From Candidatus Peribacteria bacterium (GTDB lineage: Bacteria; Patescibacteriota; Gracilibacteria; BD1-5; UBA6164), in NCBI GenBank assembly GCA_023898505.1, contig CP060226.1, positions 538,152-570,151 of the forward strand: a stretch of 32,000 bases of DNA, in the 5' to 3' direction. This document shows positions 5,003 to 27,295 of this stretch, in pieces; within the stretch, counting starts at the first letter, position 1; each line of letters starts with the position of its first letter. The translations under genes and the position numbers were made by a program. A model generated the notes under the pieces. That model saw only the letters and a list, made by a program, of their open reading frames with translations, did not search any database and had not been told where the DNA came from.

Positions 5003-5110
5003 AATCCCCTCCTTATGTTTCTCCCTTTTTCAAAGGGAGTACTCGAGATACGAGAGGGAGGGATTATTATTTATCCCCTCTCCCTACGGGGGAGAGGGTT
5101 AGGGTGAGGG
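5003..5110. repeat. Nested-hairpin repeat cluster, family B (CCCCTCTCCC...GGGAGAGGGG type)
   Basis: aatcccctcc pairs with ggagggatt. Internal hairpins are ctcccttttt caaagggag and cccctctccctacgggggagaggg, followed by ttagggtgaggg. The cluster is closely related to 14941-15045. Confidence 0.8.
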
Positions 5111-5890
5111 CTAGATACTGAATCTATAAAAAGATTCAAGACTATTTTCTCCGATAAAATCTTTTACTTTCACATTTGGATCAACCACAAACGCTTGTTC
5201 AAGCAATGAAATCTCAGATTTAAATTTCCCCATCTTTCCTTCAATAATCTTCAATAATACATCATCTGTTTTATTTGCCATTTTTGGATCATTTTTCATC
5301 ACTTCAAGTTGGATAGACTTTTCTTTTTCTACCACATCTTCTGAGATATCTGAAGTTCTCAGGTAGTCAGGATTTGTAGCAGTAACATGCATCGCTACTT
5401 GTCTCATCTTCCCAGCGTCAGTACTTGCTTCTTTTGCTACTACTACTGCGGCTAACTTCCCATTTGAGTGTACATATGACTCAACTCCAGCTCCTCCAAT
5501 CACTTTTGCTTCTTTAATCACCATATTTTCCCCAAGTTCAAGAACAGATTCTTGTTTTAGGTTCTCCATTTCGTCCATAGATTTTCCTGCTTTCAGCATC
5601 TCCATCAATGTATTCATCAATTTTTGAAACCCTTCTGATTTTGCCAAAAAGTCAGTTTCACAAGAAAGTGAAATCACATAACACTTCCCTCCTTCGCATT
5701 CTACTTTAATCCATCCTTCTGAAGTCTCTCTGTCTGCTTTTTTTGCTGCAGAAGCAAGACCTTTTTTTCTGAGTTCTTCAATCGCTACTTCTATATCTCC
5801 ACCGGCAGCAACCAGTGCCTTTTTACACTCCATCATTCCGATCCCAGTTCTTTCTCTGAGTTCTTTTACCATACTAGCTGTTATTTCCAT
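5111..5890 (-). CDS. tsf: Translation elongation factor Ts
   Basis: The N-terminus MEITASMVKELRERTGIGMMECKKAL is the classic EF-Ts UBA-like domain. There is no in-frame TGA, and the stop is TAG. Confidence 0.95.
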   Translation of the reverse strand: MEITASMVKELRERTGIGMMECKKALVAAGGDIEVAIEELRKKGLASAAKKADRETSEGWIKVECEGGKCYVISLSCETDFLAKSEGFQKLMNTLMEMLKAGKSMDEMENLKQESVLELGENMVIKEAKVIGGAGVESYVHSNGKLAAVVVAKEASTDAGKMRQVAMHVTATNPDYLRTSDISEDVVEKEKSIQLEVMKNDPKMANKTDDVLLKIIEGKMGKFKSEISLLEQAFVVDPNVKVKDFIGENSLESFYRFSI

Positions 5891-5914
5891 AATCTGCTAT
5901 GTTATAAAAATAAA

Positions 5915-7140: not shown

Positions 7141-7287
7141 GGCGATCCCGAGTACTCGGGACAGGAATGCCTTTATGAATATACATCTGTTCCCAAAAAC
7201 TTGGGATTCCCAGATATATTTCTGTCATTCCGTACTTGATACGGAATCATTATTTATGATCCTGAAACCAGTTCAGGATGACCGTCA
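7141..7287. repeat. Hairpin-repeat cluster including a family A unit (7223-7282)
   Basis: The unit is tgtcattccgtacttgatacggaatca, a spacer, then gatcctgaaaccagttcaggatgac. Upstream hairpins are tcccgagtactcggga and ttcccaaaaacttggga. The cluster lies between the S1 gene and rpsB. Confidence 0.8.
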
Positions 7288-8669: not shown

Positions 8670-8724
8670 GGTATCCCTTTCTGTCCTCCGGACATCTTTC
8701 CCTTAAGCCTAAGGGCAAGAAATA
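8670..8724. repeat. Double-hairpin repeat, family C
   Basis: The sequence gtatccctttctgtcctccggacatctttcccttaagcctaagggcaagaaata nearly matches 27131-27186 and is related to 26559-26616. Confidence 0.8.
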
Positions 8725-8865: not shown

Positions 8866-8943
8866 TGGGGTGTCCGATGGGATTTGAACCCACGACCTCC
8901 AGAGTCACAATCTGGCATTCTAACCAACTGAACTACGGACACC
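8866..8943 (-). tRNA. trnH: tRNA-His (anticodon GTG) with encoded G-1 and CCA
   Basis: The hand fold gives G(-1) GTGTCCG ... CCAGA-TTGTGAC-TCTGG ... GTGGG-TTCAAAT-CCCAT CGGACAC C CCA. Confidence 0.85.
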
Positions 8944-11211: not shown

Positions 11212-13197
11212 TTACTTCTTCAATAAATTTACAAATGCCTCACTTGGGAGACTTACCCTACCAAACTGCTTCATCTTTTTCTTTCACTTTTTCTGTTTTT
11301 CAAGGAGCTTTCTCTTACGACTTATATCCCCTCCATAGAGTTTTGCGGTTACGTCTTTTCTGAGGGCCGATATATCTTCACGAGCTACGATCTTTCACCC
11401 AACTGCTGCCTGTATCTTGATCGCAAAGAGCGCTCTTGGCACCACTTCTTTCAGTTTTGCACAAACTTTTCCTCCAACATAGTGCGCCTGCTCACGATGA
11501 CAGATAAAACTAAGAGCATCGACTTTCTCATCAGCAATCAGGATATCAAGTTTCACCATATCATCTTCTTTAAACTTGATAAATTCATAGTTCATCGATG
11601 CATATCCAGAACTCAGTGATTTTATCTCATCATAAAAATCTCCTATGAGTTCATTCATCGGAAGTTCATACACAAGCATCACACGCTCACTATCAATAAA
11701 CTGCTGATTTTTAAAAATTCCGCGGCGTTCTTGAGATAACTGCATAAGTGTTCCGACATATTCTGTCGGAGTAATAACCTCTACTTTTGCGATTGGTTCT
11801 TCGATACTCTGGTACTTTTCTCTTGCCGGGAGATCTTCAGGATTTGAGACATATGCATAGGTAAATACAGAATGTCATCCCGTACTTGATACGGGATCAT
11901 TATTTGTACTTCTACTTTTTCATGATTCTGAATCCGCCGAGTTCTCGGGGCGCGCAAGTTCAGAATGACAGAGTTCAGGTTTAAACCTTGAATACTCACT
12001 CGTCTTATCTCCGATAAACTTAACACGATAGGTTACCTGTGGGGCGGTCATAATCACATCCATATCAAACTCTCTGAACAAACGTTCTTTGACAATATCG
12101 AGATGCAATAACCCAAGAAAACCACACCTATACCCATGTCCCAGTGCTGGAGAAACCGATGATTCAATACTGAGTGCCGAATCATTGAGCACGAGTTTTT
12201 CTACGGCATCTTTCAATTGTGGGTACTCAGAACTATCCATCGGAAATATACCCGCAAAGATAAATGGCTTTGCCTCACTAAATCCAGAGATAGGTTTCGC
12301 ATTTTCTGGTTTTTCTTTTGGTCAGAGTGTATTTGCTGGTTTCCAAAGAGTATCTCCAACTTTTGCGTGTTCCAAGGTTTTCAAACCCGTTACTACATAG
12401 CCTACCGAACCGTTTTCTATGATACCATTGGATGTATAGCGAGGAGCAAAGTACCCAACATCAAGCGCCTCTATCTTTTTCCCAGTATGAAGAAAGTGCA
12501 GCATATCCCCTTTACGAATCTCTCACTGAAATACCTTTACATACGACACTACTCCACGATATGAATCATACTGACTATCAAATACCAAAGCTTTCAGTTC
12601 ATCATCCTGACTATTCACTATTCACTGTTCACTCTTCTCTTTATTATATACCTTTGGCTTCCTCACTCTTTCAATCACCGCATCAAGTACCATATCTACA
12701 TTTTGACCCGTTTTTGCAGAAATTGGGATAATTTCATCTTCGCTACATCCAAGCAAATTGATAATTTCTTCACTGACTCTTGGGATATCTGCTGCTGGAA
12801 GATCAATCTTATTTAATACTGGGATGATATCCAGATCATTTTCGATCGCCATGTAGACATTAGAAAGCGTCTGTGCCTCAATCCCCTGCGTCGCATCTAC
12901 AACTAATAGAGCTCCTTCAACAGAAGCCAGGCTGCGAGACACTTCGTACTGAAAATCTACATGACCCGGAGTATCAATAATATTGAACTCATAGCCCTTC
13001 CATTGCATACGTACCGGTTGCAATTTAATCGTAATTCCGCGTTCCTGCTCAAGCTCCATCGTATCGAGCATCTGACCATTTTTCATCTCACGCTTATCCA
13101 GTGTTCCTGTGATTTCTAGGAACCTGTCAGCCAAAGTTGATTTCCCGTGATCTATGTGCGCAATAATACAAAAATTTCTAATCTTTCCGAGTTCCAT
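11212..13197 (-). CDS. lepA: Translation elongation factor 4 (LepA), with an in-frame repeat insertion
   Basis: The N-terminus [20 protein letters not shown] is a GTPase G1 motif, and the C-terminus [27 protein letters not shown] is a LepA hallmark. Five track fragments share one frame and are joined only by TGA. Confidence 0.92.
11873..11970. repeat. Family A double-hairpin element inside the lepA coding sequence
   Basis: The sequence tgtcatcccgtacttgatacgggatca...catgattctgaa[tccgccgagttctcggggcgcgcaag]ttcagaatgaca has the same architecture and orientation as 20079-20155. Confidence 0.85.
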
Positions 13198-13349
13198 ATC
13201 GTGTATTTTAAAACAAAAAAATAATCGTGAGAAATCTTATAGAATTTTCCCTAAAAGTAAAACGATTATTTTTGCATACACGATGAAAATACGCTACAAT
13301 ATACAAGATATGTAAGGGTTTTCTAAAAAATAGAAAATTACAGTAGTAG

Positions 13350-13942: not shown

Positions 13943-13969
13943 AGAAGCTCCGTACGGAGCTTCTTTTTT
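13943..13969. terminator. Bidirectional rho-independent terminator between convergent genes
   Basis: The stem agaagctccg / cggagcttct has a 2-nt loop (ta) and is followed by a T-run. Confidence 0.7.
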
Positions 13970-15434
13970 ATCGAACCATCACCCAGACAGATCCCCCCAC
14001 CCCTGACGAAATCCCATATGAAGATGCGAGATCTCCTTTTGCAAAACCATGTGTAGTATTGTTTTGATAATTGTTAGCCCAATAATTCCAACGACTCACT
14101 AGAGAATCACAGTTACCCGCTCTACAGCCATGTGCATCTGAAACTCTATATACTGCTATCTCTTCTGTAGAATTAATACAATCTGAGGTACCCAAATCTA
14201 TACCCCCATATGTACTGTCTCTTCGATTTGTAATCAATGACTCTTTATAGGTAGCATAATAAAACCAATACTTTCTTAACCCATTATCATAGGTGTAGTA
14301 GGCTTCATTCTGAATGCATGTTTGTGGAGATATTCAGGTAGACTCAAAAGCACGCGATTGAATAAATCAATTTGGCACAAAAAATCCATAGTACTTCGTT
14401 GTATCTCCATCTATCCCCATAGATACTTCTGTAAACATCAGTTCAGAGGCATCAAGTGAATAATCATATCCTGGGTTTAGGTTCGTAGGAGTATCTCCAA
14501 TAACTGCATCGAAGAAAGTAGCACTGGGATAACTACCATCTGTTACTCATATGAGCATCCAACCGCCTCAGTCTGTAGTCATATCACAGTATACGGAAGT
14601 TTCTGTACTTCCATCTGGGTAAATAGTGTATATATCGGACCCTAAGCTTTTTCCCGCATATAATATATCAAGACAACTTGTAGGATTACTCATATGTGCA
14701 GTGATGCTCAGTACATACAACGTACTTCAAGTTCCCACTGTACTTTTCACGTCTGTGAAATTTGCCGTATAGGTGTCTGTAGTAAGGGCTATGTCAAGGT
14801 AACCTGAGTTTGTTACCGTAGTTACCTCTTGTATCGGAGCATTGGTTCAGGACTGGGTGAGGATACCAAGCTTATGTCCATTTACCGTTGAGTATCTGTT
14901 TGTGTAGTCTGTCGCTGCATGGGCTTGTGGGATGAAAGCTCCCCCTAGCCATGATATCTCCTCACCCCAGCCCTCTCCTTTGAGAGGAGAGGGAGTTATA
15001 GTTCCCCCTTCTCCCACAAGGGAGAGGGGGCTAGGGGGTGAGGGTATTTGTGTAAGAAGGTTTTCCTCTTCTTCAAGAAATGCCATCAATTGGAAGTATT
15101 TCTTATCACTCGTGAGGTAGTAGGAAAAGTAGGTGGAGTCTTTTGGGTCTTTTCCTCCTTTGGTAAAGTCTATCGTTTCAAGAACTCCTTCTCCAGCATA
15201 GCCTTGGTAGGCAATAGTCGTTCCATTAGACTTTACTTCTACGTAGTCATCTGGAAGAGGGAGGTCTTTTTCTGTTCTATAGAGTTCAAGTCCATCATGG
15301 AGTGCCGTAAGTTGAGAGATACGATTCGTATCTCTCGTTCAAGCGAGGTAGGAGCTATATGAGACAAAGCCTACGGTAGAGAGGATACCGAGGATTACGA
15401 CGACTACGATAAGTTCGACTAATGTAAACGCCAG
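13968..15434 (-). CDS. Type IV pilin-like protein with a C-terminal fibrinogen-related domain (FReD); the start codon is uncertain
   Basis: The N-terminus AFTLVELIVVVVILGILSTVGFV is a class III signal/pilin helix. The C-terminal sequence SCLDILYAGKSLGSDIYTIYPDGSTETSVYCDMTTDGGGWMLI is the fibrinogen C-domain signature, with TGA at 14578-14580 as a Gly in DGGGW. No ATG, GTG or TTG lies upstream in frame, so I placed the 5' end at CTG 15432-15434. Confidence 0.75.
14941..15045. repeat. Family B nested palindromic element inside the pilin-like coding sequence
   Basis: ccccctagcc (14941-14950) pairs with ggctaggggg (15030-15039). Inner hairpins are ccctctcctttgagaggagaggg and cccccttctcccacaagggagaggggg. 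The element is related to the intergenic copy at 5073-5110. Confidence 0.85.
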
Positions 15435-15440
15435 CTTGTC

Positions 15441-15500
15441 TGGTCCCGAATGCTCGGGAAGGGTGAATCCTTTACTCCTTCCGTTCGTAGGAAAGGATGT
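15441..15500. repeat. Double-hairpin repeat in the 5' region of the pilin-like gene
   Basis: The hairpins are gtcccgaatgctcgggaa and tcctttactccttccgttcgtaggaaagga. Confidence 0.6.
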
Positions 15501-15583
15501 TTATATTTGTTTGCATACAAAAAAATAGTTTACATATTCACTCCTAGTATAGCGAGAAAGAAAGGAAGAAAAAATGAGGGAAT

Positions 15584-15619: not shown

Positions 15620-18600
15620 TTATTTAAACGGATACTCTGCAAATGCCATATAAATAAATGTTCACCCGGACTCATTATGAGAAGTCCCTCTAAGTTTAAA
15701 TCCATTCGAAAGAAAATCAGCCCAGACAGCATATTGTTCAGCATTATCGGCACTTGCCATAAGGTAATCGCTGATAACATTATAAGGAGAACGCACCGAA
15801 TCTATCATTCACCACTGACTGGTAGAATCTACTCTTTTTGAAAGTATAAATTTCGGCTTAAACCCAGTATATACAAACGGACCATCAGTATTTCCATTTC
15901 CGGTATAACTTCCAAACTTTGAAAAACCAGGTTTTTCAGAAAAAAGATACGCAACGTGTTGTGCACCAACTACATTTGTTGCCGTTGAATCTCAAACTGT
16001 AAAAAAATCATTATCTGGAAGAGTATCATTCCAGTGATTAAAGGTAGAGGGGGTCAAGTCCTCTACATCATTTGTATCTAGAAGCAATCTATATTTTTCT
16101 GAACTAACTCAACCATTAAGATCTTGATGATATAATGGCCAATTACTTACAGAATCTCTATTTTTAATAATCATGACATCCGGTCTTGTTCATAAATTAT
16201 GCGGAATCTTCTTTCCTGCAACACCATCTCATATATACGCGACAATATCAAATCCTGAAGTAGCTGATTCTTTCCAATTCCAAGCCACATAAGTATTCGC
16301 AGCACTATTATAATCTTGTATGGATCCACTTAAAGTAAATCCATTAAAATCAAACGATGTAAAAAAACTAGGAGCCGAATATTCTGAGTCTGTAAGATTT
16401 GAACGTAATTCTTTATCTACTCCTCTGATAGAATCTCGTAACATGTGATCAGCACCAGTTACATCTCTGTTTTTAATCCACACCAAATCTGGCTGAAAGT
16501 TAAGGCCTGTAATATGATGATCTGTTAAGCCGTTTCATGCATAGGTAAGTACATCAAAGTATGCATTTGCATCTTCAATCACAGAAGCATATCCCGTTAC
16601 TAAATTATAGGCATAACTCTGAGGAATAAAATCTGAACTCCAACGAGCTATATCCTTTGAAATACGTATTTCATCCATATATCCATCAAAATAATCACTC
16701 CCTCCACCGTATTTCTTCCCAATAAAGATATCACTATTTAAGTCAGGAAGGATATTACTATCAATCGGAGTAATAGTACTCAGAGGTAAAGCAGAACCAT
16801 TTACATATATACTAAAACCTGTTCCAGACCTGACCGCTGCCACATGATACCACTCTCCTGTACTGAAATTATGCATAGCACTATACTCTGCCAGTATATT
16901 GGAACCACCATTTTTTGAAGTAAAATAGATATCTGTCGCATCCATAGAAATCGTGGTACGGAAGTTTGAGTTTGGACTATCATACATCTGTCCTATAAGT
17001 CCAGCAGAACCGAGACTATTAAAATATATCCAGAAGTCTATCGTAAAATCTCCATCAGCAAAATCCCAGTAAGCAGAGTCTGGTATTTGTAAATAATCAC
17101 CATTCCCATCAAATGCAATACTGGTTGTTCCAATTTTACGTTCATCAGTAGTATGATGTGTGTCGCCATATACCTGTATCGTATGTGCTGATCATGAGAT
17201 ATCTTGGATATCTGTGGATCCATCAGCAGTATTGGAGCGGATAAGAAGCGGGGTATTGGTGTCATAAACAGGAGTAGAATCTGGGAGATTTGAAGTAGAC
17301 AGAGCGGTGAAAGCTATTGGCGGTTCATATTTAAAATATCATCCCGCATTTTCATAATACGTAAGTCAAGATTGTCATCATTGTCAAAAGTTTGAGTTTA
17401 CACTTGAGTTTCGATAATGGTTTATAGCGAAAGTTCAAGATGCGTCTCCTGTCATCGAGATAATTGCCGTTGGATTTACCCCTTGAGAAGGGTTTCCATC
17501 AGTACTTCCGGGGGTGCTTCAAAACCAGACACTATTTTTTCAAAACCATACCTTTCAAGTACTAAAATCTGCTGCAATCATCACTGTATCCCCTACCTCA
17601 ATTTTTGGATATCCTCATACCCAAGACCCATTTTTATAAATTCTCCCATCAGCCGTACCATAGTAGTTTGCATATGAAGCTGATACAAGATTATTATCAC
17701 TATTATAGACTATAAACTCTGGTCTACTAAGCTCAGTAACAGTATCAAGAGAGACAATAGTATGTTCTGTATAATACTTCCCAGAGGCACCGATAGTTTG
17801 AATCGTACTCAAAAAAAATTCATCAGCAGAACTACTCGTATTTCCAATTTGTAAATTTCCATGACTAAAGTCAGAATACTGATACGGACGGAGACTATTC
17901 CAGACAGCAAAATTATTCTGAGGCGTATCAATCACTTGATCAGTACTATCAAGATTATTCGCAGAAAAGTGATGGGCATTTCCACTCGTATCTTTTCCTA
18001 AAATCGAACTATCCGAAAAATTCAGATGAAATCCGTTGGTTCCATAGGTTCCTGTGTATTCTTTTGGTATCCATTTACCATTAGATTGAGATTCTCAGAA
18101 ACTATCTGGAGTGAGTGCTTGTCCATCGATAAAGTATACTTCGGTCATATATCCATCTAAAAAATTCTCAATATTATGCCCCAATGTTTCTTCAAATGCT
18201 CACACATAATGGTTTTGTTGACTATTTATCCACGTTTCATAGTTTAGACTTGGATATGTTGATAATAACAAACCTGTTATTTCTTCTCCATTAACAAAGA
18301 TGGATACCGATGACGCTGTTGTATCAACGGAAATTTGTATATGGTACCAGCTACTTACATCACGAAATTTTGCAGTAGTCTGAATATCTATCTCATGTGC
18401 TCATCAATCATGGTCAGAAGCAAATCTTAGAGTATCATCACTCATAAAAGAGAAAAATGTTTTATTACTATTTCCTCATGACGTTGCAGAAAACAATGTT
18501 TGAGTTCTCTCAAGACCCGATCTTTTTACCCATCCGCTCCACGTCCACTTTCTTCTATCTCAATCCTGAGATGGGGTTCTAGATAAATATGTATCATCTG

Positions 18601-19474
18601 AACTATTAAATCTCAGAGAATTCGTAATTTCAAAAGCATTGCTCACCGTATCCAAGGAATCACTACTAAAGTCACAGGTCACTACCACTGCTCCTGTACC
18701 ACTTGGAAACACTGTAAACTCTCCTGTAGTCCCAGCAAGACTTGGTAGTACCTGCAGTAAATCATCACAATTCTCTACCGTCTTTCCTCCCTGCGATACC
18801 ATATTTGCAAGTGGCGCAAGATTAGTAGCATCTCCAGATATGGTCGTTTCTGGATCTATATGTCCGACAAAATTATCAGACGTAGTTCCAATATCTAGAC
18901 CTCACGAAGCAATAATTGCAGGTAACTCTTGAATTGGAGTATTACTCCCCGATTGTGTCAACACACCAAGAGAATCCCCGGTCACATACACATATCGTTC
19001 ACTATAATCAATATCGCTTGCATGAGCAATACCTCACCCTAGCCCACTCCTTAAGGAACTTGGAGTGATCATAGCATTCAGATATTCATCTGTTTCCAAA
19101 AAACCAAGAAGTTGGTAATACTTTCTATTTTCTCCTACATAATAGGTATAATAGGCATCATCTTGAGGATCCTTTCCGCCATCTGAAAATCAAATCGAAC
19201 CAAGCACTTGTTCGCCAGCATAGCCTTGATACCCAATCGTCGCCCCACTATAACTTACGGTTACATCATCATCGGGCATTGGAAGCAAACGCTGTACACG
19301 ATAGTCTTCTAGCCCTGATCGGATGTTTCATAATACGCTAATTCTATTACCATCTCGTGCTGAACTGATATACCCCGTATAGGTAATAAAAGAAATCCCC
19401 GCCAATATAATCAGTATGGTCGTCGCAACCAAAAGCTCCACCATCGTAAAGGCTCAAGCATTACGCAGTATCAT
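15620..19474 (-). CDS. Giant pilin-like surface protein (about 1284 aa) with LamG-like, SPRY and LamG-like domains plus a duplicated C-terminal module
   Basis: The N-terminus is MILRNAGAFTMVELLVATTILIILAGISF. The first roughly 120 aa are paralogous to gene 13968-15434. The SPRY signature is GKYYTEHTI...GDTVMIAADFSTGKVWFGKNS...NFGQGG...YFKYEPP. The LamG signature is GEWYHVAAVRSGTGFSIYVNG...FDGYMDEIRIS. All track fragments share one frame and are joined by TGA. An alternative ATG lies at 19537. Confidence 0.8.
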
Positions 19475-19479
19475 ACCCC

Positions 19480-19535
19480 TATCCCTCTCGTCCCTCGAGT
19501 ACTTTCCCCTTACAGGAGAAAGAGTTATATCTTTC
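19480..19535. repeat. Hairpin repeat in the 5' leader of the giant pilin-like gene
   Basis: The sequence ccctatccctctcgtccctcgagtactttccccttacaggagaaagag is related to families B and C. Confidence 0.55.
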
Positions 19536-19651
19536 ATATTCTTAAAGATATTGAATAAAACTAAATTTTACAAGATGAGACCCCGAATTCACCGAGATAT
19601 ACGAGTATGGAAATAACATCCCTCCTCCGTATACTTCTCCCCCTCATTTAT

Positions 19652-20713
19652 CTATGTACCTTTTCCCTTTTCCATTCTTCCCTTTCGTCTTTTCTCTTTT
19701 ATCTTTCATCTTTCATCTATTTCCAATTCTTTCACTACCTCTATCCACTCTTCAATTCCCAATTCTTCTCCCCTCACAGTATCCGAAATACTCAGTTTTT
19801 CAAATATCACTAGTATTTTCCCCTTGTCATATCCACTATTTAATAAGTTCTTCAGTAGCTTTTTTCTCGGTTCACGAAAACCCTGTTTAATAATTTCTAA
19901 AAATACTCCATCATCGATATCTCTATAATTATCATGAGTTATAAAGTGAAGAACGATAGATTCTACCTTTGGCGCAGGATAAAAGTGCTCTTTCGGCACA
20001 ACACAAACTTCCCTCACAAAACACTTTTTTGCGATAAAAAGTCAGAGGACTGAAGAGCGTATTTTTTTATCACTTCTGTGTCATCCCGTACTTGATACGG
20101 GATGATAATTTGTACCTTTACATTTTCATGATTCTGAAACAAGTTCAGAATGACAAATAGATCTCTGTCAGCTTAAAATTTTCCTCCCCACATCCTCCTG
20201 CATCATAATCGCCATCTCTTGAGGAGATGTAGAAACTTCATAGAGAAAGTGCCTAAGAATCGGAGAAGTGATATAATACGGGATATTTGCGATGACTGAG
20301 TAATTAATTTGTCATTCTGAACTTGATTCAGAATCATTAATAGTATCTTTACTCTTTCATAGATTCCTGCCTCCGCAGGAATGACATACGTGAAATATCG
20401 GTTCATACTTAAGGACATCGATATGCTCGATGTTAACATTCAGTCCTTCAATTTGCAATTCTCCTGTCTGTATTCTCTGCTCAAGGATGGTGATCATATC
20501 TGGATCAAGCTCCACGAGAGTCAAAGATTGTGGTATTTGCGTCAGGAGTTTTTCGGTGAGTGCCCCATACCCTGGACCTACTTCCACGATATTTTTTCCA
20601 TCTACCTCAATAGCTGTTGCAATATTTTCTAGACTTCCTTCATCTACAAGAAAATTTTGTCCCAAAGATTTTTTTGCGTGGAGTTTATATTTTTGTATAC
20701 TTTGTGGAAGCAT
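19652..20713 (-). CDS. rsmA: 16S rRNA (adenine1518/1519-N6)-dimethyltransferase RsmA/KsgA, with two in-frame repeat insertions
   Basis: Supporting motifs are KKSLGQNFLVD, VEVGPGYGALTEKL, ANIPYYITSPIL and FYPAPKVESIVL. I chose the ATG at 20711-20713. The frame reads through several TGA to TAG at 19652-19654. Confidence 0.88.
20079..20155. repeat. Family A double-hairpin element inside the rsmA coding sequence
   Basis: The sequence tgtcatcccgtacttgatacgggatgataatttgtacctttacattttcatgattctgaaacaagttcagaatgaca is near-identical in its arms to the lepA copy. Confidence 0.85.
20310..20386. repeat. Family A variant double-hairpin element inside the rsmA coding sequence
   Basis: The sequence is tgtcattctgaacttgattcagaatcattaatagtatctttactctttcatagattcctgcctccgcaggaatgaca. 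Confidence 0.8.
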
Positions 20714-26558: not shown

Positions 26559-26616
26559 GTTCCCTTTTCCTCGCGATATTGGGAGGTCTTCCCCTTACTT
26601 CTAAGGGAAAGAACGG
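26559..26616. repeat. Family C double-hairpin repeat upstream of rplK
   Basis: The sequence is agttcccttttcctcgcgatattgggaggtcttccccttacttctaagggaaagaacgg. Confidence 0.7.
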
Positions 26617-27130: not shown

Positions 27131-27186
27131 TATCCCTTTCTGGTCTCTCGACCATCTTTCCCTTACCTCTAAGGGAAAGAGTAATG
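27131..27186. repeat. Family C double-hairpin repeat
   Basis: The sequence tatccctttctggtctctcgaccatctttcccttacctctaagggaaagagtaatg is a near copy of 8670-8724. Confidence 0.8.
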
Positions 27187-27220: not shown

Positions 27221-27295
27221 GCTCCCATCGTCTAGCGGTTAGGACGCTGCCCTCTCACGGCGGAAACAGGAGTTCGATTCTCCTTGGGAGTACCA
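27221..27295 (+). tRNA. trnE: tRNA-Glu (anticodon CTC)
   Basis: The hand fold gives acceptor GCTCCCA/TGGGAGT (G1-U72), D-arm GTCT-AGCGGTTA-GGAC, anticodon arm CTGCC-CTCTCAC-GGCGG and T-arm AGGAG-TTCGATT-CTCCT, with an encoded ACCA end. Confidence 0.85.

What the first reader, a model, noticed from the sequence alone, without database searches (positions are those of the whole stretch)
14941..15045. A second repeat family (GC-rich nested palindrome) is also translated in frame inside the pilin-like gene
The family B element encodes LTQIPSPPSPLSLVGEGGTITPSPLKGEGWGEEISWLGG. It lies between FQLMAFLEEEENL and AFIPQAHAATDY in gene 13968-15434. The paralogous region of the neighbouring gene (YQLLGFLETDEYLNAMITPSS...) lacks it. 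A closely related copy is intergenic at 5073-5110. In-frame residence is therefore not limited to one element family.
Basis: seen in the sequence. Interest (0 to 1): 0.7.

Follow-up and report, generated by a model that had tools for sequence, protein, structure and literature searches.

The report
Known GC-rich repeat translated inside gene
A 117-base GC-rich nested palindrome sitting in frame in a pilin-like gene of a Gracilibacterium is a copy of the old, unexplained BoxC/PIT/"triplex motif" repeat of E. coli and many other bacteria, and tracing it led to evidence that this repeat family travels with DUF559 endonuclease genes.

Summary
Window 14940-15056 is a 117-nt (39-codon) stop-free insertion in a pilin-like ORF (13968-15434, minus strand). 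The organism reads TGA as Gly (code 25) and is Gracilibacteria-like.

The insertion is two inverted hairpin-plus-tail units plus an orphan tail. It lies in a loop that AlphaFold predicts as disordered. Full-length orthologues lack it.

The neighbouring paralogue does not lack it. It keeps one degraded unit at the same place (19032-19066), read through an in-frame TGA.

Family B is not new. It is the BoxC / PIT / TM_ECO G/C-rich intrastrand triplex motif (Holder et al. 2015). The intergenic copy at 5076-5110 is a perfect "type A" unit.

What appears new:
- These units lie in frame in real genes, here and in other phyla. They recur at the same linker and in the leader peptide of homologous pilin-like genes, in all three reading frames.
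- DUF559 (Vsr-like) endonuclease genes are flanked by such units or doublets, including E. coli ycjD. Whole unit-DUF559-unit cassettes sit in frame in MetRS and LeuRS genes.

The Gene1 doublet therefore looks like a cargo-less derivative. That last step is inferred, and no DUF559 gene was found in the Gracilibacteria DNA at hand.

The parts
13968..15434 (-). Gene1: pilin-like gene with a prepilin N-terminal methylation motif and a fibrinogen-like YCDxxxxGGGW C-terminal domain. It holds 7 in-frame TGA (Gly) codons. The ORF stays open up to 15500 and the start codon is unresolved.
   Evidence: code-25 ORF. (Pfam N_methyl weak, Fibrinogen_C 6.6e-07). (375 homologues, named Candidatus Gracilibacteria prepilin / fibrinogen-like proteins). 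(no ATG/GTG/TTG in frame).
14940..15056 (-). The whole in-frame insertion: 117 nt, 39 codons, LTQIPSPP...ISWLGG.
   Evidence: In the linker-length census the mode is 16-19 aa; Gene1's linker, measured with the same anchors, is 54 aa. AlphaFold2 gives pLDDT below 50 and coil for fragment residues 96-144, with flanks at 80-94.
15004..15044 (+). Unit 1 (G-rich strand on +): hairpin CCCCCTTCTCCC-ACAA-GGGAGAGGGGG, linker CTA, tail GGGGGTGAGGG. The G strand is also a canonical G4 motif.
   Evidence: compared with Table 1 of PMC4666352.
14994..15003 (.). 10-nt spacer AGTTATAGTT between the two inverted units.
14960..14993 (-). Unit 2 (G-rich strand on -): CCCTCTCCT-CTCAA-AGGAGAGGG, linker CTG, tail GGGTGAGG. 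This is TM 'type B'. Its tail pairs with the tail of unit 1 to form the outer stem.
14938..14950 (-). Orphan tail-like G-run GGCTAGGGGGAGC, a partial third unit that encodes WLGG.
   Evidence: sequence. Inference from its similarity to the CTAGGGGGTGAGGG tail of unit 1.
5076..5110 (+). Intergenic single unit CCCTCTCCCTACGGGGGAGAGGGTTAGGGTGAGGG, a perfect TM_ECO 'type A'. It abuts the stop codon of ORF 5111-5896(-) and lies 75 nt from tRNA-Trp.
   Evidence: Table 1 of PMC4666352.
5008..5068 (+). Neighbouring compound hairpin element: TCCCCTCC...CTCCCTTTTTCAAAGGGAG TACTCGAGATACGAGAGGGAGGGAT.
19032..19066 (-). Degraded single unit in the linker of paralogue Gene2. It reads ...TPSSLRSGLGgG, and the tail GGG-TGA-GGT is read in frame with TGA = Gly.
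19477..19530 (-). Second copy of the 5008-5068 element, at the 5' end of Gene2. It lies in the 5' UTR if translation starts at ATG 19474, or in frame in a 33-aa leader if it starts at ATG 19537.
15620..19474 (-). Gene2: a paralogous pilin-like gene with a Laminin_G_3 domain.
   Evidence: (40% identity over 292 aa, E = 1e-61)..

Best explanation
The segment is a DNA-level repeat, not a protein module. It is a doublet of BoxC / PIT / 'TM' units, the G/C-rich intrastrand-triplex-motif family. Each unit has three blocks: a pyrimidine block, a complementary purine block that forms a hairpin with it, and a second purine block GGGTGAGGG after a 3-nt linker. That third block can form a reverse-Hoogsteen triplex, or with the hairpin's purine arm a G-quadruplex. 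In Gene1, two units in inverted orientation with their tails outward form a three-way-junction palindrome.

The doublet sits in the disordered linker between the pilin head and the next beta strand of a Gracilibacteria pilin-like protein, and it is read through.

Three things let it persist.
(i) Its purine and pyrimidine runs hold few stop codons, and in this host TGA is Gly. That opens the GGG-TGA-GGG frame, which Gene2 actually uses.
(ii) All frames give Pro/Ser/Gly/Glu/Leu-rich flexible peptide.
(iii) The site is a permissive loop. The same linker and the cleaved-off leader peptide hold such units in many homologues.

Inferred origin: the family is the cognate repeat of DUF559 (Vsr-like PD-(D/E)XK) endonuclease genes, much as REP/REPIN relates to RAYT. 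Unit-DUF559-unit cassettes can insert in frame into genes. Cargo-less units and doublets like this one would be their derivatives, for example left by recombination between flanking doublets, or mobilised in trans.

Shown: identity, architecture, in-frame position, loop location, recurrence, and DUF559 adjacency in other taxa. Inferred: how this copy arrived, and any role of DUF559 in this genome.
For: Identity.
- Unit 5076-5110 equals the published type A consensus CCCTCTCCC-loop-GGGAGAGGG-TTA-GGGTGAGGG. Gene1 unit 2 is type B with a CTG linker.
- E. coli also has inverted A+B pairs.
Hits came from most phyla, and the bases left unspecified in the pattern were also conserved.

DNA-level nature.
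- The same unit, in the same orientation, sits at the same linker in Gene1, Gene2, P0012 (L002) and P0021 (L162). Its tail is read in three different frames: GGT-GAG-GAG, GGG-TGA-GGT, GGG-GTG-AGG.

Insertion.
- Orthologues P0001-P0005 lack it.
- The linker mode is 16-19 aa. 26 of 97 family members, Gene1 and Gene2 among them (24 of the 95 database homologues), have linkers of 24 aa or more, carrying peptides such as SPLSLGEGLGVR.
- At least 16 gains or losses are needed on an NJ tree.

Permissive site.
- pLDDT is below 50 for residues 96-144, between confident strands.

Not specific to pilins.
- In-frame units occur in MnmA (L002) and in a radical SAM gene (L163). In standard-code phyla they occur in HsdR, a CN_hydrolase and LeuRS.

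DUF559 link.
- All 7 DUF559 ORFs found in the 120 TM-selected loci lie within 170 nt of a unit, and 4 are flanked on both sides.
- Cassettes lie in frame in MetRS (twice) and LeuRS.
- E. coli ycjD has a degenerate unit over its stop codon, and TM_ECO #9 lies 168 nt downstream.
- 9 of 11 DUF559 genes chosen only by protein homology have such hairpins in their flanks. Density is 1.5 per kb against 0.08 per kb in control loci.
- Kapabacteria L171 and Sphingomonas L173 have tails-outward doublets on both sides of the gene, the same architecture as the Gene1 insertion.
- An independent survey found DUF559 proteins enriched 14-fold among genes bracketed by inverted repeats (PMC9881135).
Against: - No DUF559 gene was found in the window or in about 85 kb of other Gracilibacteria loci. 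The whole genome was not available.
- No target-site duplication could be recognised at the Gene1 insertion.
- Holder et al. found no association of the motif with mobile elements in E. coli, and reported it as always intergenic there.
- Most units are far from any DUF559 gene, so trans-mobilisation is assumed, not shown.
- Gene1 lacks a canonical in-frame start, so translation of this copy is not proven.
- Recurrence at one site in one orientation could also reflect targeting or selection rather than tolerance.
- The Gracilibacteria loci I examined were chosen for long linkers, so the pilin enrichment seen in them is biased.
Confidence: 0.7

Rival explanations
1. The units are kept by the host as recombination or instability hot spots that diversify pilin-like genes. 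They sit at module junctions (leader / mature protein, head / variable C-terminal part) and promote exchange among paralogues. This would be comparable in spirit to the G4-dependent pilE variation of Neisseria.
For: - Units recur at exactly two positions of the family in several Gracilibacteria.
- The family has many paralogues with swapped C-terminal domains: Fibrinogen_C, Laminin_G_3 and others.
- The G strand is a canonical G4 motif.
- TM loci in E. coli are more rearranged than controls (PMC4666352).
Against: - The same units lie in frame in unrelated housekeeping genes: MnmA, radical SAM, HsdR, LeuRS.
- The conserved region of the two paralogues continues about 130 aa beyond the linker, so the site is not the module boundary.
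- No silent cassette array was seen in the window.
- The pilin loci I examined were chosen for long linkers, which biases the count.
Confidence: 0.12
2. Gene1 is a decaying pseudogene. The element then simply lies in dead DNA, and 'translated in frame' is moot.
For: - There is no ATG, GTG or TTG in frame upstream of AFTLVE.
- The only plausible ATG (15516-15514) is one base out of frame.
Against: - 488 codons without TAA or TAG in a 34% GC genome.
- The invariant family residues are kept, and the flanks of the insertion fold confidently.
- A single-base indel in an A-rich stretch could be an assembly error.
- Intact homologues carry units at the same site.
Confidence: 0.12
3. The peptide is a protein-level feature: a selected Pro/Ser/Gly-rich flexible spacer. 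The DNA palindromy is then a by-product.
For: The encoded peptide is low-complexity and lies in a linker.
Against: - An intergenic copy exists.
- The tail is read in three different frames at the same site in homologues, giving different peptides.
- The DNA matches a cross-phylum non-coding repeat base for base.
Confidence: 0.03
4. It is an mRNA-level regulatory structure. The stable hairpins would pause ribosomes or protect the transcript between two folding units of the protein.
For: The predicted RNA structure is very stable, and it lies between two structural parts of the protein.
Against: - Either strand orientation occurs in genes.
- The earlier work summarised in PMC4666352 reported no promoter or terminator activity and no effect on RNA polymerase or reverse transcriptase.
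- No Rfam family matches.
- Orthologues do without it.
Confidence: 0.05

Closest known systems
BoxC / PIT element / TM_ECO G/C-rich intrastrand triplex motif (Bergler/Bachellier 1990s as cited in PMC4666352; Hoyne et al. 2000; Holder et al. NAR 2015, PMC4666352)
   Same: The three-block sequence CCCTCTCCC-loop-GGGAGAGGG-(TTA or CNG)-GGGTGAGGG is the same. Types A and B both occur, as do inverted A+B pairs. The family is dispersed and multi-copy, and it is found in many phyla.
   Different: In E. coli K-12 the motif is reported as always intergenic and not linked to mobile elements. Here it is read in frame in coding sequences of a TGA-recoded, 34% GC candidate-phyla-radiation bacterium, at recurrent sites of one gene family. 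I also find it flanking DUF559 genes.
Rickettsia palindromic elements (RPE; reviewed in PMC10969869, PMC1779305)
   Same: Both are palindromic dispersed repeats inserted in frame into protein-coding genes. Both are compatible with protein fold because they sit in loops, and both are absent from orthologues.
   Different: There is no sequence relation. RPEs are about 100-150 bp, AT-rich and restricted to one genus. This family has units of about 35 nt, is GC-rich, is found across phyla and has triplex/G4 potential.
REP / REPIN sequences and their RAYT transposases (own knowledge: Nunvar 2010; Bertels & Rainey 2011)
   Same: Short palindromic units occur singly or as inverted doublets. There are many orphan copies and a few copies that flank a single-domain nuclease gene.
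   Different: The flanked gene is DUF559 (Vsr-like PD-(D/E)XK), not an IS200/IS605-type Y1 transposase. There is no GTAG tag. Mobilisation is untested. REPs are extragenic by definition.
Homing-endonuclease and intein-type in-frame insertions; Vsr-like homing endonucleases (PMC3424549 lists VSR/DUF559 with a group I intron homing endonuclease)
   Same: A nuclease ORF is embedded in frame in essential genes (MetRS, LeuRS) at surface positions.
   Different: No intein splicing motifs or intron were seen. The cassette is bounded by TM repeats. The Gene1 copy has no nuclease.
Neisseria pilE G4 motif for pilin antigenic variation (own knowledge: Cahoon & Seifert 2009)
   Same: A G-quadruplex-capable sequence is associated with a pilin gene.
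   Different: The Neisseria G4 lies upstream of pilE and works with silent pilS copies. Here the motif is inside the ORF, and the same motif occurs in non-pilin genes.

Membership tests
BoxC / PIT / TM_ECO intrastrand triplex motif | Three consecutive blocks: a pyrimidine block, its complementary purine block (hairpin), then a second purine block that can pair antiparallel to the first by G.G, A.A and T.A reverse-Hoogsteen triads. | tested here: met
   5076-5110 reads CCCTCTCCC / GGGAGAGGG / GGGTGAGGG, and position-by-position triads are all allowed (sequence). Gene1 units 1 and 2 have the same layout.
BoxC / PIT / TM_ECO intrastrand triplex motif | Consensus sequence with a TTA (type A) or CCG/TCG/CTG (type B) linker, as in Table 1 of PMC4666352. 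| tested here: met
   The intergenic unit is an exact type A. Gene1 unit 2 has a CTG linker, like TM_ECO #8. Unit 1 has a CTA linker and longer G runs, so it is a variant.
BoxC / PIT / TM_ECO intrastrand triplex motif | Dispersed multi-copy occurrence beyond chance. | tested here: met
   4 matches against 0.12 expected in the window. Copies also occur in other Gracilibacteria loci. A genome-wide count was not possible.
BoxC / PIT / TM_ECO intrastrand triplex motif | Formation of a stable triplex by the single strand in vitro. | not testable with these tools
   Only hairpin energies could be computed. Triplex and G4 formation are inferred from the sequence and from PMC4666352.
BoxC / PIT / TM_ECO intrastrand triplex motif | Intergenic location (a descriptive feature in E. 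coli K-12, not part of the motif definition). | tested here: not met
   Gene1, Gene2, MnmA and radical SAM copies lie inside ORFs. This is the point of difference.
Rickettsia palindromic elements | Sequence homology to one of the RPE families. | tested here: inconclusive
   No alignment against RPE sequences was run. What was established is that the units match the BoxC/TM consensus base for base and have no Rfam match, and that they are about 35 nt and GC-rich, whereas RPEs are described as about 150 bp. Not filed as RPE; it only works like one.
Rickettsia palindromic elements | In-frame insertion into ORFs at structurally permissive positions, absent from orthologues. | tested here: met
REP/REPIN-RAYT systems | Repeats flank a RAYT (Y1 transposase) gene. 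| tested here: not met
   The flanked genes are PF04480 DUF559, E = 1e-31 to 1e-38. This is an analogy only.
MITE | Terminal inverted repeats plus a target-site duplication. | tested here: inconclusive
   Inverted units are present. Inspection of the junctions of 14940-15056 showed no convincing direct repeat.
Type IV pilin-like protein (host gene) | N-terminal leader, then G/A|FTLVE hydrophobic helix (prepilin methylation motif). | tested here: met
   AFTLVELIVVVVILGIL is present. Pfam N_methyl scores 18.1 bits, below the cut-off of 21.2. There are 375 homologues, many annotated as prepilin-type. The leader and start codon are unresolved.

The most novel reading that the evidence does not exclude
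BoxC/PIT/TM repeats are the cognate repeats of DUF559 (YcjD-type, Vsr-like) endonucleases. Together they would form a cross-phylum selfish system analogous to REP/RAYT. Its unit-nuclease-unit cassettes insert in frame into genes, including essential ones (MetRS, LeuRS), because the repeats encode flexible stop-free linkers. The nested palindrome in the Gracilibacteria pilin-like gene would be a cargo-less relic or a trans-mobilised derivative of such a cassette. That would give both the 30-year-old BoxC motif and the DUF559 domain a function.
Probability: 0.4. Interest if true: 0.8.

Novelty: new variant of a known kind. Interest (0 to 1): 0.62.

Why it matters
BoxC/PIT/TM motifs have been known since the 1990s. 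They occur in hundreds of genomes and still have no accepted function or mode of spread. DUF559 is a very common domain of unknown function.

This copy shows that the motif can live inside coding sequence. It does so in a streamlined, recoded candidate-phyla-radiation genome where intergenic space is scarce, and where TGA = Gly opens an extra reading frame through GGGTGAGGG.

If the DUF559 link holds, three things follow:
- An open question becomes directly testable: does YcjD bind or cut BoxC DNA?
- Many 'PSP...GEG...GVR' peptides in database proteins get an explanation.
- A source of in-frame domain and linker insertion in essential genes is identified.

There is also a practical point for annotation. 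Such stretches in proteins, and long 'leaders' of pilin genes, are repeat-derived.

Tried and rejected
- Looking up the source contig with a window protein (cNMP-binding ORF from MAKKIQ...) found nothing on record. No genome-wide census was therefore possible.
- Rfam at gathering thresholds returned only three tRNAs.
- The metagenome scan with the pilin alignment returned mostly generic, distant pilin N-termini. It added almost no Gracilibacteria DNA, and few units were found there.
I used the TGA-free fragment 14850-15338 instead.
- No convincing target-site duplication was found at the insertion.
- I considered the idea that the unit shared by Gene1 and Gene2 predates their duplication and did not adopt it. 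The two are not each other's closest relatives on the NJ tree, and the shared bases are simply the family consensus.
- A pilin-specific G4 or recombination role was down-weighted once the same units were found in frame in MnmA, radical SAM, HsdR, CN_hydrolase and LeuRS.
- Literature searches for ycjD / BoxC / DUF559 found no paper linking them in the held library. That is not proof that none exists.
Full report
**Host and gene.** The window is 34% GC. Its genes are open only if TGA is read as a sense codon. In LepA (11212-13236, minus strand) TGA falls at conserved glycines: AAVGgKIVA and KQKKgKKKM. This is genetic code 25. The homologues of the genes studied are annotated as Candidatus Gracilibacteria.

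Gene1 (13968 to about 15434, minus strand) has the AFTLVELIV prepilin helix and a fibrinogen-like YCDxxxxGGGW domain. Gene2 (15620-19474, minus strand) is a paralogue, 40% identical over 292 aa, with a Laminin_G_3 domain.

Gene1 has no ATG, GTG or TTG in frame between the stop at 15503 and AFTLVE. An ATG at 15516-15514 (MQTNIN...) is 85 nt upstream of the Ala codon, one base out of frame. Its nearest relatives on the tree have long leaders ending ...VPDKGFRVLA|AFTLVE, which resemble Gene1's ...SGPDKLA|FTLVE. A single-base indel, real or from assembly, is therefore likely. The rest of the ORF is intact.

On the plus strand the DNA is laid out as follows:
- 14960-14993: tail complement CCTCACCCC, then AG, then the hairpin CCCTCTCCT-TTGAG-AGGAGAGGG.
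- 14994-15003: a 10-nt spacer.
- 15004-15044: hairpin CCCCCTTCTCCC-ACAA-GGGAGAGGGGG, then CTA, then the tail GGGGGTGAGGG.

The two tails pair to close a three-way junction. RNA MFE is -62.8 kcal/mol, z = -3.5, and none of 200 shuffles folds as well. A further orphan tail, GGCTAGGGGGAGC, lies at 14938-14950.

The intergenic relative at 5076-5110 is a single unit, CCCTCTCCCTACGGGGGAGAGGGTTAGGGTGAGGG. It abuts the stop codon of ORF 5111-5896(-) and lies next to tRNA-Trp. The core GGAGAGGGNNNGGG with up to 1 mismatch occurs 4 times, against 0.12 expected.

**The paralogue.** BLASTP of the two N-terminal modules shows gaps of 16 + 8 + 3 = 27 residues at this place. So there is a gap, but the statement that the paralogue lacks the element is wrong.

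At the homologous position Gene2 has ACTCCAAGTTCCTTAAGGAGTGGGCTAGGGTGAGG (19032-19066). This is a unit with a decayed 5' arm and an intact 3' arm, linker and tail, matching Gene1 unit 2 at 19 of 21 bases. It is one of the four pattern hits. It is read as S-G-L-G-g-G: the tail is in the GGG-TGA-GGT frame, which would be a stop in the standard code.

A second element type, at 5008-5068, has its other copy at the 5' end of Gene2 (19477-19530).

**Insertion and structural context.** The full-length orthologues P0001-P0005 (38-47% identity) have no extra residues here. Among 100 homologues the linker between ...FLE and ...DY..R has a mode of 16-19 aa; Gene1's linker, measured with the same anchors, is 54 aa.

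AlphaFold2 was run on the TGA-free fragment 14850-15338 with 38 aligned sequences. It gives pLDDT 80-94 for the pilin head, and below 50 with coil for residues 96-144, which is the insertion. A strand resumes after it. So the insertion sits in a loop.

**Recurrence in homologues.** 26 of 97 family members (Gene1 and Gene2 among them; 24 of the 95 database homologues) have linkers of 24 aa or more, with peptides such as SPLSLGEGLGVR, SPLLEREGLWV, SPLRRGIEGD and PSPPLKGG. Leaders have a mode of 6-8 aa, with a tail of 17-58 aa containing HPQPLSWKERG-type peptides.

The DNA confirms that these are repeat units:
- L162 (P0021), linker: CCCCTCTCTCTTTGGGAGAGGGGCTGGGGGTGAGGG.
- L002 (P0012), linker: CCCCTCTTTTGGAAAGAGAGGGGCTGTGGGTGAG.
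- L001 (P0018), leader: CCCTCACCTAGCCTCTCCCAATGGGAGAGGG.
- L163 (P0039), leader: CTCACCCCCAACCCCTCTCTTGAAAAGAGAGGGG.
- Related C-run/G-run hairpins occur in L001 and L004.

At the linker the unit has the same orientation in Gene1, Gene2, P0012 and P0021. Its tail is nevertheless read in three different frames. What is conserved, or repeatedly delivered, is therefore DNA and not peptide.

On an NJ tree of the flanking protein parts, long linkers are interspersed with short ones among close relatives. At least 16 state changes are needed, against a shuffled mean of 23 and a minimum of 17. That indicates repeated gain and loss at one site.

Gene1 and Gene2 are not nearest relatives on that tree. 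Their shared unit therefore need not predate their duplication.

**Identity of the family.** The hits came from Proteobacteria, Cyanobacteria, Chloroflexota, Bacteroidota, Planctomycetota, Verrucomicrobiota, Acidobacteriota and others. Bases that the pattern left unspecified were also conserved: CCCTCACCC-YRR-CCCTCTCCC.

A full-text search for the blocks found Holder et al., NAR 2015 (PMC4666352). Their TM_ECO motif was earlier called BoxC and PIT. It is CCCTCTCCC-loop-GGGAGAGGG-TTA-GGGTGAGGG (type A), or the same with a CCG, TCG or CTG linker (type B). According to that paper:
- E. coli K-12 has 23 copies, 'always located intergenically'.
- Five inverted pairs exist, each combining a type A with a type B.
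- The motif is present in more than 260 genomes.
- It forms a triplex in vitro as a single strand.
- It has no promoter or terminator activity.
- It is associated with local genomic instability.
- It is not associated with known mobile elements.

The window's intergenic unit is an exact type A. Gene1 unit 2 is type B. Unit 1 is a CTA-linker variant. The same sequence has been discussed as a G4/hairpin switch (bioRxiv 032615). Rfam has no family for it.

**In-frame residence is general.**
- In Gracilibacteria locus L002 a unit lies in MnmA, reading ...ATGHYARIEDFT[PLSLVGEGLGVRALK]KGVDELKDQSYFL. The Pfam HUP domain runs across it.
- In L163 a unit lies in a radical SAM gene.
- In standard-code, lower-GC loci from the scan, 9 of 28 units are inside stop-free stretches of at least 150 codons. 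These include HsdR, a CN_hydrolase and LeuRS, confirmed by Pfam domains on both sides.

The 'always intergenic' rule is therefore specific to E. coli. The units are stop-poor. In the Gene1 element one of the three coding-strand frames is open. Type B units have a stop only in the GGG-TGA frame, which code 25 opens.

**The DUF559 lead.** In Cytophagales locus L073 the two units in LeuRS bracket a 128-aa insert, which Pfam calls DUF559 (E = 1e-34).

tblastn with that insert against everything fetched found 7 DUF559 ORFs. All are in TM-selected loci, and all lie within 170 nt of a unit. Four are bracketed on both sides (L073, L099, L040, L008).

L040 and L008 are MetRS genes in which unit-DUF559-unit lies in frame between the anticodon-binding domain and the C-terminal tRNA-binding domain. 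In L040 the domains are tRNA-synt_1g at 5-407, Anticodon_3 at 465-565, DUF559 at 650-759 and tRNA_bind at 797-889.

ycjD, the DUF559 gene of E. coli K-12 examined here, has three relevant features:
- a degenerate unit over its stop codon (C-terminus ...RRSPSP*);
- a duplicated remnant of its 3' end;
- TM_ECO #9 located 168 nt downstream.

As an unbiased test I took DUF559 genes chosen only by protein similarity.
- Three came from the protein database. Hymenobacter L170 has canonical units on both sides. Kapabacteria L171 has a tails-outward doublet with a 20-nt spacer on both sides. Anaerolineales L165 has TM-like hairpins upstream.
- Eight genera came from the plasmid collection. Six have such hairpins at the gene ends. 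Sphingomonas L173 has identical doublets on both sides.

With one detector, density is 22 hits in 14.7 kb around DUF559 genes, against 26 in 311 kb of unrelated loci.

Independently, a survey of genes bracketed by inverted repeats lists 'DUF559 domain-containing protein' as 14-fold enriched (PMC9881135). VSR/DUF559 is classed as a PD-(D/E)XK nuclease family that includes a homing endonuclease (PMC3424549). I found no paper in the held library that links DUF559 or ycjD with BoxC/TM.

**Interpretation.**
- Shown: the Gene1 element is a TM/BoxC doublet, inserted relative to orthologues, in frame, in a predicted disordered loop, at a site where relatives repeatedly carry the same repeat.
- Shown: the paralogue has one decayed unit.
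- Shown: in other taxa such units and doublets flank DUF559 genes, and whole cassettes are in frame in essential genes.
- Inferred: the Gene1 doublet, which has the same tails-outward geometry as the L171 and L173 doublets and the L073 cassette ends, is a cargo-less derivative or a trans-mobilised copy.
- Inferred: its persistence is due to tolerance, that is stop-poor sequence, flexible peptide, a loop or cleaved leader, and TGA = Gly.

Against the inferred part: no DUF559 gene was seen in the window or in about 85 kb of other Gracilibacteria loci, no target-site duplication was found, and the start of Gene1 is unresolved.

The main rival is that the units are kept as recombination hot spots for pilin diversification. 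The two-site recurrence and the published instability of TM loci favour it. Three things weaken it: the same units occur in housekeeping genes, paralogue conservation continues past the linker, and my locus sample was biased.

**Verdict.** The family is already known, so 'a second repeat family' is not a discovery in itself.

The coding-sequence residence appears unreported. It occurs in a recoded candidate-phyla-radiation genome, at recurrent sites and in all frames, one of them through TGA. The DUF559 association uncovered while tracing the family also appears unreported, and it makes an old question testable.

Noticed in passing
window 7223-7282, 11866-11975, 20079-20158, 20307-20382: A different composite hairpin repeat ('family A': TGTCATCCCGTACTTGATACGGGATCAT ... 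TCATGATTCTGAA-loop-TTCAGAATGACA). The copy at 11866-11975 lies inside the LepA ORF and is read through as ...[32 protein letters not shown]...
   Followed up: no
window 8693-8720, 26585-26612, 27153-27180: A third small pyrimidine/purine hairpin family, CATCTTTCCCTTA-N4-TAAGGGAAAGA. Two copies lie just beside tRNA genes (tRNA-His 8866-8942, tRNA-Glu 27221-27295).
   Followed up: no
window 15430-15520: Gene1 has no canonical start codon in frame. An ATG at 15516-15514 is one base out of frame with AFTLVE. Small hairpins (CCTTTCC-TACGAAC-GGAAGG, CCCGA-GCAT-TCGGG) fill the leader region. A 1-nt indel, real or from assembly, is likely.
   Followed up: partly
window 15314-15336: A perfect 10-bp-stem palindrome, GAGAGATACGATTCGTATCTCTC, lies inside Gene1 and encodes the conserved RDTNRIS motif. 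The homologue L162 encodes the same motif without any palindrome.
   Followed up: no
window 19477-19537 and 5008-5068: A two-copy compound hairpin element (...GGGAG TACTCGAG-N3-CGAGAGGGA-N2-GGG). One copy is intergenic. The other is at the 5' end of Gene2, where its purine run sits where a ribosome-binding site would be for ATG 19474. Alternatively it is read in frame from ATG 19537.
   Followed up: partly
L073 6629-7083; L040 (reverse strand) 5354-5888; L008 1307-1794: Unit-DUF559-unit cassettes are translated in frame inside LeuRS (Cytophagales) and MetRS (two betaproteobacteria). They lie at a linker or at the edge of the editing domain, and no intein motifs were seen.
   Followed up: yes
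L164 (E. coli K-12 NC_000913.3 1351040-1351830): ycjD (DUF559) ends in a degenerate BoxC hairpin. It is followed by a duplicated fragment of its own 3' end and then by TM_ECO #9. A long perfect palindrome, CACCTCATTCTGACAA-N9-TTGTCAGAATGAGGTG, lies just upstream of ycjD.
   Followed up: partly
L163 10040-10095: In a Gracilibacteria pilin-like leader, the loop of the unit contains an in-frame TGA (PLSgKERG). This is another case where residence in frame depends on TGA = Gly.
   Followed up: no
window 14932-15120 (+): Because the element is palindromic, the antisense strand also has an open frame across it (62-aa ORF MKAPPSHDISSPQPSPLRGEGVIVPPSPTRERGLGGEG...). This kind of spurious 'hypothetical protein' is what such repeats generate in annotations.
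   Followed up: no
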